Source: Octopus vulgaris
Taxonomy: Eukaryota
Assembly: GCA_951406725.2 (NCBI GenBank)
Contig: OX597814.1
Location: 188,790,001-188,854,000 of the forward strand
Length of the DNA: 64,000 bases
Direction of reading: 5' to 3'
In this document: piece after piece, positions 15,686-59,792 of the stretch
How the letters are laid out: every line of letters starts with the position of its first letter
Position numbering within the stretch: position 1 is the first letter of the stretch
Notes under the pieces: model-generated
Seen by the model: only the letters and a program-made list of their open reading frames with translations
Databases searched by the model: none
Told to the model about the DNA's origin: nothing
Position numbers and translations under genes: made by a program

Positions 15686-15867
15686 TGATAGATCGTTAGC
15701 CACTACACACTTTTTTTCTCTCCTTGTTTTTTTCTGTATCCCTTTCTGTAGAAGAGCGTAGGCTCGAAACGTAAAAGACTTTTTCTATTCCTGAGCGTTA
15801 TACTAATACATCCGTTTATTTTGTACACCATCTGTCTCCGTCTTTTGATTTTTTCGTAAACTCTCCC
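15686..15867 (+). mobile_element. ~180-bp hammerhead-bearing element (family H, PLE pLTR-like), copy 1
   Basis: (TA)n on both sides; six further copies in the window. Confidence 0.8.
15742..15777 (+). ncRNA. Minimal type-I hammerhead-like motif, variant core CUGUAGA
   Basis: cttt CTGTAGA a gagc-gtag-gctc GAAA cg TA aaag: stem I cttt/aaag, stem II gagc/gctc, palindromic ACGT stem III. Confidence 0.65.
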
Positions 15868-16139
15868 TATATATATATATATATATATATATATATATAT
15901 ATATATATATATATATATATATATATATAAGTATAATAGTATTTACTTCATAATTTTCCTTTATGCTTATGTTGCCGTATTAGCGAATGACATCTAAACG
16001 GTGTAACACTAAAACACCAATAATAATTAACAACTAAATCTTATCCATTACTAGAAATTATCCAATAAAAAGCAATAAATCATGTTAATCATATATTTAT
16101 ACAATAAAACGTCAGAGATAATGCATAAATATTGCACTC

Positions 16140-17370
16140 TTATACAAAAGTCGATTTCCTGATTCAGGTAATCTGACTGTATGGAATGCGTTCCATACAT
16201 CTAAGATTATCAAATCCGGAAATTACCAAAATAATGGAGAGCTATATTCGCCATAAGGAACAGCTGAGTACTGGAGTTCGGAAAAATGCTACGTCACTCC
16301 GTAAGTAAGTAAAAGAATCGTGTTAATGTAACTGCCATAGGCAAGGAACTGCAATGTTACATTAATCAATGTACATATTCTGTGTCGGATCACAATGGAA
16401 GATTTCTATTATTGCCAGTTTGCATATGCGTTACATATCATCCCTCGTAGAGCCATACCGCTATAAATGAGATACTTCAACTACTAGATAAGGAAAAACT
16501 ATAAAAAGTGACCTGCATTTACGGGCAAATAAGATGTAATGAATCAAATTAAAAATGTTAAATACCTCTTTCTTTACTCACCCACAAGGGGCTAAACACA
16601 GAGGGGACAAACAAGGACAGACGCGCGGTTTAAGTCGATTATATCGACCCCAGTGCATAACTGGTACTTATTTAATCGACCCCGAAAGGATGAAAGGCAA
16701 AGTCGACCTCGGCGGAATTTGAACTCAGAACGTAACGCAGACGAAATACGGCTACGCATTTCGCCCGGCGTGCTAACGTTTCTGCCAGCTCGCCGCCTTT
16801 ATGTTAAATACCGTTCGAATGCAAGACAATGTAAGTCAACACAAATACTCCATATATTATAATAGAATTGCTTCTTTCATTACACAACAGGAAGACAAAT
16901 TGGACGTTCACAACATAAGGGCAATGCTTGGCTAAATCTGCTGAACCGATCATACATCAGAAGCATAGCGGTCAGGATGTTACTAAACCTATTAAGCTAC
17001 ATAGAAAAGCTTCATACACACGACATTTTCACTGGGACATACAGAAAGACTCGATGATTGATTATGAATGGTCGTGTTTTCGACGAGCTGTGAGCGACAG
17101 GATTTAAACTGCCATTGGAACGTTTCAAAGAAACACAAATATTGGTTGCTCCTGGTGATGTTCAATTGCAAATAACGCTACAGAACTAAATCCAACAGAT
17201 GAAAGAGTAATATATGCTAAGAGTACTTCATAGGTCATGGTTATTAAAAGACAATGGCAGACTACTACAAAATAATAAAGAAATGCACAAGTTGGTAGCA
17301 GAAGGTTCGTAGTACAAGGAAATAGCAGAAAGCAGAACTGCATCGCGTCACACAGGAATCATATGAAGGG
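16140..17370 (+). pseudogene. Decayed RTE-type LINE ORF (AP-endonuclease end + linker), interrupted by SINE B
   Basis: EDKLDVHNIRAMLG*IC*TDH (~16892-16954) resembles the RTE DV..TRAM.GA.C.TDH motif; downstream EWSCFRRAV..AIG; boundaries uncertain. Confidence 0.5.
16566..16798 (-). mobile_element. SINE family B monomer
   Basis: Family match; ATGTTAAATACC on both sides. Confidence 0.85.
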
Positions 17371-17474
17371 CTTCTATACCGAACACACACACACACATGA
17401 TATATATATATATATATATATATATATATATATGTGTGTGTGTGTGTGTGTGTGTGTGTGTGTGTGTATTAAAT

Positions 17475-17757
17475 GTGGCTTCGTGGTTAGGACATTCGGC
17501 TCATGATGTAAAGTCGTGAGTTCGATAACCGGCAGTGGGTTGTCTCCTCGAGCAAGACACTTTATTTCAGTCGACAGTCCACTCACCTGGCAAAAATGTG
17601 TTCTACCTGTATTTCAAGGATTTTGTGTTACGCTGAACCTTCCCGAGAACTACGTTAAGGTGTACACGTGTCTTTGGAGTGCTCAGCCGCTTGCACGAAC
17701 AGGCTATCCCGTTGATTGGATCAAGTGAAAATCTCGTCGTCGTAAGCTGCGGTGTGT
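17475..17757 (+). mobile_element. tRNA-derived SINE (head D, body C2), diverged
   Basis: Similar to 15392-15650. Confidence 0.65.
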
Positions 17758-17811
17758 CAATTTTGTATATATACAGAAAAGGTGAAGCCGCCACATTCAA
17801 GCATGTGTCAG

Positions 17812-18116
17812 GTTATTTGTTCCTTCTCGAGCCACGCCTGGCTCATTAGGGCCGGTTTCCCGGTTTCCTTGGCGTATAGGTTCCCCACCTGGACGGGACG
17901 CCGGTCCGTCGCAGGTGAGCTGCAAGATGGAGGAGGAAAGAGTGAGAGAAAGTTGTGGCGAAAGAGTCAGCAGAAATTCGCCATTACCTTCTGCCGGAGC
18001 CGCATGGAGGTTAGGTGTTTCGCTCATAAACACACACATCACCCGTTCTGCGATTCGAACCTGCTATCCCTCGACTGCGAGTCCGCTGCTCTAACCACTA
18101 GGCCATGTGCCTCCAC
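17812..18116 (-). mobile_element. tRNA-derived SINE (head C, body C1)
   Basis: Reverse complement of GTGGAGGCACATGGCCTAGTGGTTAGAGCAGCGGACTCG..GGTTCGAATC; matches 46395-46700. Confidence 0.8.
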
Positions 18117-56920: not shown

Positions 56921-57756
56921 TTTCTATTTCTGCTATGTATACATACATAAGCTACAAATACCTGCTACGCTCCTATAAGAATTCCTAGAATTCGCAACGG
57001 GCTTGTCGTTCAGGTGTTTGACTGCTAAGGTGAAAAACCATTTTGTATTGTCACTGACGGCACATTGTATCCCCGGCAAAAATACATTCTTAACTCTTAG
57101 TTGTTCTTCACCATCTTTAGGTCCTGGCCAGCCTTGATCGAGTAGAGCCATGAGCATTATTGTGTCAGCTATGACTATGTAGGTTTGTTTTCAGATATAA
57201 TGTATCCAAGAATTCTTCCCTCCGTTTAAACAGCAGGAGGTACTTTGAGAGAGATGTGGCTACTATTCCTAATAGATCAGCAACAATATAGCACATATCA
57301 CTGTTGTAAATACAAGTGAAACTGAGTAGTCGAATACTGATTTGTTTGCACCCAAGAACATTCTTAATTTCGCCTAAGAGATAATAAAGATGAAATTGAT
57401 ACAACTAATAGTGTTAAGCTGCTGACGATGGCTACTGAGAGCAAGAACTAAGCTTCTTGTGAAGCGAGACGACATCACATTTTACAATATATTCTTGCTG
57501 TTAATACACTTAAAAAATTGCAAGGGTAGTACGTTATTTTATCCCCCTTTCTTTCTAAAATATAAGACTTTTGCATTAAATCAAAATAAACCAAAACTAT
57601 ATCAGCACCATCAGTGCTATTTTATAAGTAGTTTGGTAATATCGGTTGAGTGACGGGCAAAGTAACTTGAGCTATTTACTTGCTTGTATTTACATTTTGA
57701 TTTCGAATCTTGTCAAGATAATCATTCCTATCATCAATACCGTGTCAATATATACC

Positions 57757-58100
57757 GTGGAGGCGCAATGGCCCAGTGGTTAGGGCAGCGGACTCGCCTT
57801 GTGAGTGTTTATTGAGCGGAAACACCTAAAGCTCCACGAGGCTCAGGCAGGGATGGTGGTGATCCCTGCTGTACTCTTTCACCACAACTTTCTCTCACTC
57901 TTACTTCCTGTTTCTGTTGTACCTGTATTTCAAAGGGCCGGCCATGTCACTCCCTGTGTCACGCTGAATATCCCCGAGAACTACGTTAAGGGTACACGTG
58001 TCTGTGGAGTGCTCAGCCACTTACACGTTAATTTCACGAGCAGGCTGTTCCGTTGATCGGATTAACCGGAACCCTCGTCGTCGTAACCGACGGAGTGCTT
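57757..58100 (+). mobile_element. tRNA-derived SINE (head C, body C2)
   Basis: GTGGAGGCGCAATGGCCCAGTGGTTAGGGCAGCGGACTCGC head; ACCGTGTCAATA flanking repeat. Confidence 0.8.
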
Positions 58101-58612
58101 CCATCCACCGTGTCAATAAAATAAATACTATTCAGACGTTTACTGGCTATGGTATTCACCATAATACTGTCTAGTTGCCATAACGTTTTACGATAGTGGA
58201 GTCTTGAGTTCAATGATTGTGGGTTATCCATTTTCCCTGAAGATTTAGAGTAGGATTTCCATACTTTGTTACTATTTTTCTCTGATGATGTCGCTATGTG
58301 TTAACGTTTGATTAACTCTTTATAATGACGTTCAAGTGACCGACTCTGCAGCGTAAACTTTTTATGGTTTCCTCAAGTATCGTTATCCACCTTAACTATT
58401 TATCATGGATTGCTTCATTACTGCATAATCTTCAGATGTCTTCCAAATGCTCCATCAGAGTAACAACAGCCTTATAAAAGCAGGTATTGATATTCCAATA
58501 CATGTTATCCAATTATTTAATACATTACACAACAATATCGACAAAAACTTAAAATGTCTTCTTCACTTTCATCAAAAAATCTCTGTTGTTTAACGTCACA
58601 CAACTTTGTCAG

Positions 58613-58950
58613 TATATATTATATATATATATATATATATATATATATATATTATATATATTATATATATATATATATATATATATATATATATATATAT
58701 ATACATATATATACATATATATATATACATATATATATATATACATATATATACATATATATATATATACATATATATATATGTATATACATATATATAT
58801 ACATATATATATATATATATATATATATATATATATACATATATATACATATATATATATGTATATACATATATATATACATATATATATATATATATAT
58901 ATATATATATATATATATATAATATGTATATATATATATATATATATATA
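58613..58950. repeat. Interrupted (TA)n microsatellite
   Basis: Direct read. Confidence 0.95.
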
Positions 58951-59170
58951 CACAAGAAAATTAAGAAAATGGATTTAAATCAATTAATAAATATATTTAT
59001 TAACTGCAAAAATAAACATGATCTCTAAAAGCTATTTCGATTTATACTTTAAAGATTATGACTGCAATAAATCATTTTATAAAGCAGAATCTCGTTAGAG
59101 GCAGCCCAAAATATATACCAATGTATTATTAGGTGTTAATGTTAAGTAAACGGAGCATTACATATATATA

Positions 59171-59792
59171 GGGAAAATTCACAAAAACAAAAGATGAAGA
59201 TAGGTGATGTAGACAACAAATAGATGTGTTAGTATAACGCTCGGGAAGTGAAAAAGCCTTTAACGTTTCGAGCCTATGCTATTCCACAGAAAGGAACACA
59301 GAAAGAAACAAGGAGAGAAAATAAAGAATATGTAGTGGCTAGCAATCTATCACGGGTACAAAATAGTTTAGAAAGTATAAAAATATGTTGAGAACGTGTA
59401 AAAAATTACGAAAAGTTCAAAAGCTTCAGACGTCGTGGTGTATTGGAGCGATTTTTCATCAACGGAGGAGTCAAGTGTAATCCATAGGCAGGAGAGATGC
59501 AGCTGAAGTGTAGAAAGTCCAGTAGAAGTTGGTGGGTGATGAGAGAAGACAGGTAGAATCCGTAGAAGTTCGGGTGCGATGAGAAGAGACAGGATCAACT
59601 AGTGCAACCACGTGAGCGTGTAATATATGGGGAGAATTCGCGAAGACAGGTGGTGTAGACAACAAACAGATGTATTTGTATAACTCTTGGGAAGTGAAAA
59701 AGTCTTTAACCTTTCGAGCCTACTCTCTTCCACAGAAAGGAACACAGAAAGAAACAAGGAGAGAAGATAAAGGATGTGTAGTGGCTAGCGAT
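59171..59792 (-). mobile_element. Two direct family H copies (59171-59352, 59628-59792) flanking a ~275-bp spacer
   Basis: Motifs at 59258-59293 and 59704-59739, same orientation. Confidence 0.75.

What the first reader, a model, noticed from the sequence alone, without database searches (positions are those of the whole stretch)
15686..59792. Seven-copy ~180-bp element carrying a non-canonical hammerhead (CUG-U-N-GA)
Seen: copies at 15686, 33865, 39554 (+) and 50579, 52139, 59171, 59628 (-) share cttt-CTGTNGA-a-stem II-GAAA-cg-TH-aaag. All have U where canonical cores have A6. Position 7 is A,C,C,A,G,G,G and position 17 is A,A,A,A,U,U,U; these are the core positions hammerheads tolerate. Stem III is usually just the palindrome ACGT. 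Established: PLE pseudo-LTRs carry minimal type-I hammerheads thought to work as dimers through palindromic stem III. Inference: an abundant PLE-derived non-autonomous family with a fixed A6U core that standard CUGANGA searches would miss.
Basis: partly seen in the sequence, partly recalled or inferred. Interest (0 to 1): 0.75.

Follow-up and report, generated by a model that had tools for sequence, protein, structure and literature searches.

The report
Altered-core hammerhead in Neptune-like retrotransposon
These repeats are the cut-short tail ends of an abundant jumping gene that encodes its own copying enzyme; its self-cutting RNA motif carries one changed catalytic-core letter that stayed fixed while only the motif's two normally free positions changed, so it is likely a slow working variant, although cutting is untested.

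Summary
The seven copies are real and all carry U at core position 6. They are not a separate non-autonomous family. They are 5'-truncated ends (pseudo-LTRs) of an autonomous Neptune-type Penelope-like retrotransposon. G000 holds 15,730 exact U6 27-mers against 180 with A6, which is the neutral back-mutation rate. U6 sits in 22 of 23 readable ORF-linked copies and in both pLTRs of young full-length copies. The ORF is under purifying selection (dN/dS 0.09-0.16). Across eight subfamily clusters the 33 constrained hammerhead columns never change, against 46 of 114 flank columns; only N7 and H17 vary. That is a hammerhead-specific constraint acting with U6. Against efficient cutting: position-6 mutants are slow in vitro, and 5' ends pile up 89-100 nt upstream of the cut (28 of 57) rather than at it. 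Best reading: an attenuated hammerhead, probably needing a dimer or protein help. I found no natural A6U core in print, but one key paper (Lunse 2017) was not held. This scan noted an A6U retroelement hammerhead in another genome (e1-9559914).

The parts
15686..15868 (+). 5'-truncated pLTR copy (A7/A17 subfamily), between (TA)n tracts; the only window copy with an undamaged fold
15742..15777 (+). Minimal type-I hammerhead: stem I 5' strand 15742-15745, C3 15746, U6 15749, N7 15750, extra A9a, 4-bp stem II with 4-nt loop, GAAA, palindromic ACGT stem III, H17 15773 (predicted cut after 15773), stem I 3' strand 15774-15777
   Evidence: fits the min-HHR consensus in the supplement of PMC4209133 except at position 6
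33865..34047 (+). pLTR copy (C7/A17); U6 at 33928; one stem II mismatch
39554..39729 (+). pLTR copy of an older subfamily (C7/A17); U6 at 39615; decayed stems
50579..50761 (-). pLTR copy (A7/A17); U6 at 50701; G10.1 mutated
52139..52330 (-). pLTR copy (G7/U17); U6 at 52255; 5' end 99 nt upstream of the predicted cut
59171..59354 (-). pLTR copy (G7/U17); U6 at 59286
59355..59625 (-). Tail and 5' UTR of the same PLE, continuing from the 59628 copy (internally deleted element, or a second copy inserted into it)
   Evidence: aligns to the region between 5' pLTR and ORF of full-length copy L197, score 147 vs at most 69 in 30 shuffles
59628..59793 (-). pLTR copy (G7/U17) in 5'-pLTR position; U6 at 59732

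Best explanation
The element is the truncated terminal repeat of an autonomous Neptune-type Penelope-like retrotransposon, and its minimal hammerhead is likely a slow but still working ribozyme with U in place of A6. Shown: the PLE architecture, U6 in every sampled subfamily, an invariant core and stems with only N7 and H17 free, and purifying selection on the ORF. Inferred: transcripts would start about 100 nt upstream of the cut; reverse transcription would start about 95 nt downstream of it at a (TA)n target; uncut RNA would give the abundant 180-195 bp inserts. Inferred, weaker: a minority of RNAs would be cut, probably as a 5'/3' pLTR dimer through the ACGU palindrome or with help from the element's protein, and could be ligated into circles that give the full-length partial tandems whose two pLTRs share private variants.
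For: Identity: long copies run upstream into RT and GIY-YIG coding sequence about 700 nt away. 22 of 23 readable cores downstream of 29 RT-EN loci are U6; 6 loci had no readable core. 12 of 20 fetched full-length candidates have the U6 motif in both pLTRs. L200 has a stop-free 1076-aa ORF with DKG, YIDD, a CX4CxxC linker and GIY-YIG. Fixation: U6 15,730, A6 180, C6+G6 422; A6 is 1.10% against a background T>A rate of 1.12%; 186 of 199 aligned copies have U6, the majority in all 8 clusters. Constraint: 0 of 33 block columns differ between subfamily majorities vs 46 of 114 resolved flank columns (Fisher p 8e-7). On a tree from flank columns, for clades of 6 or more, only N7 (5 changes) and H17 (3) change, while 60 of 129 flank columns change. 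No subfamily majority has G17. Contigs of 4 public runs vary at 5% or more inside the block only at N7 and H17. ORF dN/dS between U6 subfamilies is 0.09-0.16 with dS up to 0.28. Precedent: natural A6C cleaves slowly (PMC3088659 section 8) and well in Mn2+ (PMC7151607); a PLE hammerhead cleaves only with the PLE protein added (PMC11167929).
Against: No cleavage was measured. In a saturation study single and double mutants of the CUGA turn had low activity apart from the C3-G8 swap (PMC9901934, passages). In vitro transposition of the anole PLE does not need hammerhead cleavage, and no RNA-seq ends were found at its cut (PMC11167929). Here 5' ends are not enriched at the cut: 4 of 57 lie within 3 nt of it; 2 of 100 listed copies begin at it (by eye); of 72 truncations in the last 11 nt, 27 fall at -2..0 and 45 at -3..-10, about the same per base once TA microhomology is allowed (by eye). 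There is no compensatory change within the family. Loop II is also invariant, which catalysis alone does not require. Shared pLTR variants can also arise by template jumping. Predicted stem I pairing in context is weak (probability 0.30 and 0.002).
Confidence: 0.58

Rival explanations
1. The fold is kept as a non-cutting RNA structure (binding or positioning site for the RT-EN protein, or a translation or packaging signal); A6U was fixed because catalysis had become dispensable.
For: Hammerhead mutants do not affect TPRT in vitro (PMC11167929). Naiads spread without canonical hammerheads (PMC8557442, passages). No pile-up of 5' ends at the cut. Loop II invariant.
Against: The pattern of constraint matches catalytic rules: G5, G8, G12, A13, A14, A15.1 and U16.1 frozen, N7 and H17 free, G17 never fixed, over an ORF dS of at least 0.28. 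Two variable columns of 35 landing on N7 and H17 by chance is 1 in 595.
Confidence: 0.28
2. The block is conserved at the DNA level, as part of the internal promoter downstream of the start site, and the hammerhead reading is a relic.
For: PLE promoters lie in the pLTR (PMC6765202, passages). The block lies about 70-105 nt downstream of the inferred start. Other invariant runs of 9 and 13 columns exist in the flanks.
Against: A 35-nt block with only N7 and H17 free is not expected of factor-binding sites. The A6 sister family keeps the same architecture with a different loop II and a swapped stem I pair.
Confidence: 0.06
3. One reading: an independent non-autonomous 180-bp family carrying A6U, mobilised by a parent PLE with a canonical core.
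For: Short copies dominate and have a sharp preferred 5' end (28 of 57 at -100..-89), as a SINE would. Some may come from short pLTR transcripts copied in trans.
Against: Every sampled ORF-bearing subfamily has the same U6 terminus. 14 of 57 copies extend 148-884 nt upstream. The A6 copies examined fall inside U6 subfamilies.
Confidence: 0.05

Closest known systems
Minimal type-I hammerheads (min-HHR) in pLTRs of metazoan PLEs (Cervera and De la Pena 2014, PMC4209133)
   Same: In both pLTRs, on the sense strand; extra nucleotide 9a; G10.1-C11.1; short stem I; palindromic 15.2-16.2; U-rich flanks; mostly solo truncated copies.
   Different: Their consensus is CUGANGAH and the core exception named in the text I read is U3-A8; here position 6 is U throughout a long-lived autonomous lineage. 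Stem II is 4 bp rather than the 7-8 bp of the Schistosoma motifs.
Natural A6C hammerhead of phage Bcep176 (PMC3088659; PMC7151607)
   Same: Pyrimidine at core position 6 in a natural hammerhead.
   Different: C rather than U; a single phage sequence with measured activity (kobs 0.004 per min at 1 mM Mg2+, 0.31 at 1 mM Mn2+), against more than 15,000 genomic copies with no measurement here.
Neptune-clade EN+ Penelope-like elements (as summarised in PMC8557442)
   Same: Single ORF, DKG, RT, CX2-5CxxC linker, C-terminal GIY-YIG with internal cysteines, (TA)n targets, partial-tandem pLTRs.
   Different: Nematis shares the linker; no tree with named references was built, so the clade is assigned by motifs and target only.
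PAc, Poseidon element of Anolis (PMC11167929)
   Same: pLTR hammerhead upstream of an internal RT start site; uncut RNA appears to be the main template.
   Different: PAc has a canonical, protein-assisted hammerhead that overlaps the start codon; here the main ORF starts several hundred nt downstream and the core is U6.
Non-LTR retrozymes (bioRxiv 10.64898/2026.07.22.740005, introduction and part of methods seen)
   Same: Short type-I-hammerhead repeats related to PLE pLTRs.
   Different: Retrozymes are tandem and non-coding; these copies are dispersed truncations of a coding element.

Membership tests
Hammerhead ribozyme | Core C3 U4 G5 A6 N7 G8 A9 / G12 A13 A14 | tested here: not met
   All positions met except A6, which is U in 186 of 199 copies. 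A natural position-6 variant with activity exists (A6C).
Hammerhead ribozyme | A15.1-U16.1 pair and H17 (not G) | tested here: met
   Subfamily majorities have A or U at 17; 1 of 199 copies has G.
Hammerhead ribozyme | Three helices around the core, supported by covariation | tested here: inconclusive
   Stem I 4-5 bp and stem II 4 bp are invariant within the family; one compensatory stem I swap against the sister family; stem III forms only in a dimer.
Hammerhead ribozyme | Self-cleavage 3' of H17 | not testable with these tools
   No assay. The genomic proxy (5' ends at the cut) shows no enrichment.
PLE min-HHR | Located in both pLTRs of a PLE, sense strand | tested here: met
   12 of 20 fetched full-length candidates.
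PLE min-HHR | Extra nucleotide 9a, G10.1-C11.1, palindromic minimal stem III | tested here: met
   consensus in PMC4209133.
EN+ Penelope-like element | Single ORF with RT and C-terminal GIY-YIG endonuclease | tested here: met
   P0001. Pfam RVT_1 E 1e-7 to 2e-6 in 3 of 3 fragments; GIY-YIG E 0.004 in 1 of 3, below its cut-off. Homologues carry PF00078 and PF01541.
EN+ Penelope-like element | Partial-tandem structure forming pLTRs, with tail | tested here: met
EN+ Penelope-like element | Retained spliceosomal intron | not tested
   A long T-rich 5' UTR is present but splicing was not examined.
Neptune clade | CX2-5CxxC linker and CCHH motif; (TA)n targeting | tested here: met
   Linker at residue 834 and core cysteines at 875-881; the two histidines were read by eye; (TA)n flanks.
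Neptune clade | RT phylogeny groups with named Neptune elements, not Nematis | not tested
   No named references among the homologues listed.
Non-autonomous SINE-like element or retrozyme | Distinct from, and independent of, a coding element | tested here: not met
   Same terminus as the coding subfamilies.

The most novel reading that the evidence does not exclude
The U6 core is a working but gated ribozyme (switched on by the element's own protein, by dimerisation or by Mn2+), and the repeated changes at N7 and H17 tune its rate. That rate sets the balance between uncut linear RNA, which is translated and yields the 180-195 bp inserts, and cut, ligated circular RNA, which yields full-length copies. 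A6 would then be dispensable in vivo, and selection for slow cutting would be visible in a retrotransposon's fossil record.
Probability: 0.22. Interest if true: 0.75.

Novelty: new variant of a known kind. Interest (0 to 1): 0.5.

Why it matters
What PLE hammerheads do is unresolved: they cut poorly in vitro and are dispensable for TPRT in the one reconstituted system. Here a lineage lost a supposedly essential core base yet froze every other functional position through a long run of subfamilies. It supplies matched natural constructs (U6 with each N7 and H17 combination, and a canonical A6 sister in the same genome) to test whether slow or protein-gated cutting is what selection keeps. It also shows that CUGANGA descriptors miss a family of more than 15,000 copies in one genome.

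Tried and rejected
1) A6 as a parent subfamily: the 30 A6 loci fall across U6 subfamilies. Searching with the A6 copy L033 returned 29 further loci, none read as A6 by eye. Searching with L020 returned 28 loci beyond the two query-locus hits, 1 read as A6 by eye. Rejected. 2) Genomic sign of cutting: no enrichment of 5' ends at the cut. 3) RNA evidence: no RNA holder listed on record; all runs laid were contigs, which cannot show ends, strand or level. 4) Rfam gave no hammerhead hit even on the A6 sister, so it is uninformative here. 5) Folding energies: the double-hammerhead form scores -13.7 and -10.9 kcal/mol against -26.8 and -20.6 for the best alternative dimers; not informative about catalysis. 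6) Random 10-kb stretches gave only 3 family hits in 400 kb, too few for a copy number; only the exact-match lower bound is used. 7) A proposed loop II contact with an upstream CUAC/CUGC was looked at by eye; it is not kept in two older subfamilies and was dropped. 8) The 5'-versus-3' pLTR distance test was mixed: the own 3' pLTR was nearest for 5 of 10 young elements. 9) Lunse, Weinberg and Breaker 2017 is not held; supplement file 1 of PMC4209133 was not searchable; figures of PMC3088659 (Fig. 5, S6, S7) were not visible. Any of these could already list an A6U core.
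Full report
Observation. The seven copies are present at the stated places, 73-90% identical, and are the only copies in the window. Six of the seven carry private changes that damage the fold, as expected of dead copies. The genome G000 (2.8 Gb, 227 contigs) looks like an octopus genome; that is my inference from size and repeat content, and earlier scan notes say the same.

Abundance and fixation. The exact U6 27-mer occurs 15,730 times, the A6 version 180 times and C6 or G6 422 times, 13 of the first 100 listed being G; reversed controls give 0. 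A6 is 1.10% of the total, and invariant T columns in the flanks mutate to A at 1.12%, so the A6 copies match the back-mutation rate. In 199 near-complete copies, with those picked by the A6 pattern removed and duplicates dropped, position 6 is T 186, C 10, A 2, G 1, and T is the majority in all 8 clusters. These copies came from similarity and pattern searches, so they are not a random sample.

What the element is. Long copies continue upstream through a pyrimidine-rich 3' UTR into GIY-YIG and RT coding sequence. Of 29 loci picked on the RT-EN segment alone, 23 have a readable core downstream: 22 U6 and 1 A6. Loci picked on the ORF's 5' end show the motif again upstream, followed by a TA-rich tail and a 5' UTR; window 59625-59355 is that 5' UTR. 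Twelve of 20 fetched candidates have the motif at both ends. A young subfamily is 93-98% identical over kilobases. [quoted passage not shown] By the features in PMC8557442 (passages) this is a Neptune-type PLE; Nematis was not excluded by a tree. The ORF tree is a ladder, and subfamily majorities differ with dN/dS 0.16, 0.16 and 0.09 (dS 0.28, 0.14, 0.18), against 0.55-0.71 for copies versus their own majority. The U6 lineage therefore stayed autonomous.

Constraint on the hammerhead. Between the 8 cluster majorities, 0 of 33 block columns differ when N7 and H17 are set aside (32 resolved in all clusters), against 46 of 114 resolved flank columns (p 8e-7; downstream flank alone 23 of 75, p 8e-5). 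With 12 clusters one block column varied. Parsimony on a tree of flank columns gives, for clades of 6 or more copies, 5 changes at N7, 3 at H17 and none elsewhere in the block, while 60 of 129 flank columns change. With clades of 4 or more, two CpG positions also change. N7 takes all four bases and is among the fastest columns; I cannot say whether that is tuning or mutability. Within subfamilies the block still decays (3.2% vs 5.0% at non-CpG sites; some selection bias), so the constraint acted on source elements. Contigs of four public runs, coded as four organisms, vary at 5% or more within the block only at N7 and H17. There is no covariation inside the family. A related short family with a canonical CUGACGA core has a different loop II and a G-C pair where this family has C-G in stem I; with the published consensus CUGANGAH this makes U6 the derived state.

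Does it cut? Literature read: position-6 changes lower activity; natural A6C gives kobs below 0.1 per min (PMC3088659 section 8) and prefers Mn2+ (PMC7151607, parts 1-2 of 4). CUGA-turn mutants were low in a saturation study (PMC9901934, passages). PLE min-HHRs cut weakly as dimers (PMC4209133, parts 1-2 of 4). The anole PLE hammerhead needs protein and is not required for TPRT in vitro (PMC11167929, parts 1-2 of 4). Genomic proxy: among 57 copies picked only on sequence downstream of the cut (query and 2 duplicates dropped), 28 begin 89-100 nt upstream of it, 11 between -86 and -11, 14 beyond -148 and 4 within 3 nt of the cut. A finer search found 132 copies lacking the normal sequence 11-17 nt upstream. 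Of 100 listed I dropped 25 internal rearrangements and 3 duplicates by eye; 27 of the remaining 72 break at -2..0 and 45 at -3..-10. That is no clear excess once TA microhomology is allowed. So most templates of short copies were uncut or re-ligated, and the sharp edge at -100 argues for linear RNA with a fixed 5' end. In several subfamilies that edge lies at a CA(G/T)TC motif resembling an initiator (motif recalled; contexts). In contrast, all 14 full-length copies with a detectable 5' hammerhead extend past -100 (to -109 through -900), and the two pLTRs of one insertion share private variants (L184, L185). That fits a circular template, as proposed in PMC4209133, but also template jumping.

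Mechanism committed to. Shown: architecture, fixation, constraint, autonomy, 5'-end distribution. Inferred: start site near -100, RT initiation at the tail on (TA)n targets, uncut RNA as source of the short inserts. Least certain: slow cutting by the U6 core, as dimer or with protein, feeding a circular template. I give this 0.58; a non-catalytic but conserved fold 0.28.

Novelty. The element and the motif are of known kinds. A natural A6U core did not appear in five full-text searches, judged from listings, in section 8 of PMC3088659, in passages of two reviews (PMC6765202, PMC6155905) or in the searchable supplement of PMC4209133. Passages of an octopus repeat annotation (PMC13282606) do not mention ribozymes. 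Lunse et al. 2017 was not held and may bear on this. The scan's own notes report an A6U retroelement hammerhead in another genome and an A6C one in a shark-like genome; I could not check them. Verdict: new variant of a known kind, interest 0.5.

Noticed in passing
L321-L350; also L018, L084, L094, L096, L098, L108: A young, about 220-bp sister family with a canonical CUGACGA core, a fairly sharp 5' end and no PLE ORF within 1.5 kb upstream in 30 of 30 loci: a candidate truly non-autonomous PLE derivative and a natural A6 control. Some copies have U4C.
   Followed up: partly
about 94 nt upstream of the cut in each copy, e.g. window 15685-15699: A four-codon upstream ORF, M-(I/L)-(D/I)-R-stop, is the commonest reading in all 8 clusters, right behind the inferred start site.
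   Followed up: partly
window 42796-42856 (-): A canonical type-I hammerhead core (CUGACGA, C3 at 42843) with a 4-bp stem III and a degenerate stem I, unrelated to this family.
   Followed up: no
window 30964-33051 (-) and 20931-21233 (+): Remnants of other PLE ORFs, 29% and 35% identical to P0001.
   Followed up: no
L061, L073, L075, L131, L133, L038: Other minimal hammerhead families in this genome with canonical or U3-A8 cores and different stems (119 descriptor hits in all against 2 in reversed sequence).
   Followed up: no
G000 places listed: Recurrent internal deletions that remove stem II between the two GAA repeats, or most of the core, in independent copies; could be RT slippage across the hairpin.
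   Followed up: no
window 10388-11253, 24979-25644, 51189-51672, 53529-53946 and others: A different dispersed repeat with a 182-191-bp partial-tandem unit (families D14, D20).
   Followed up: no
L136:5472-7409 (+): A 646-codon stop-free frame, cysteine-rich at its C-terminus, next to a PLE copy; not identified.
   Followed up: no
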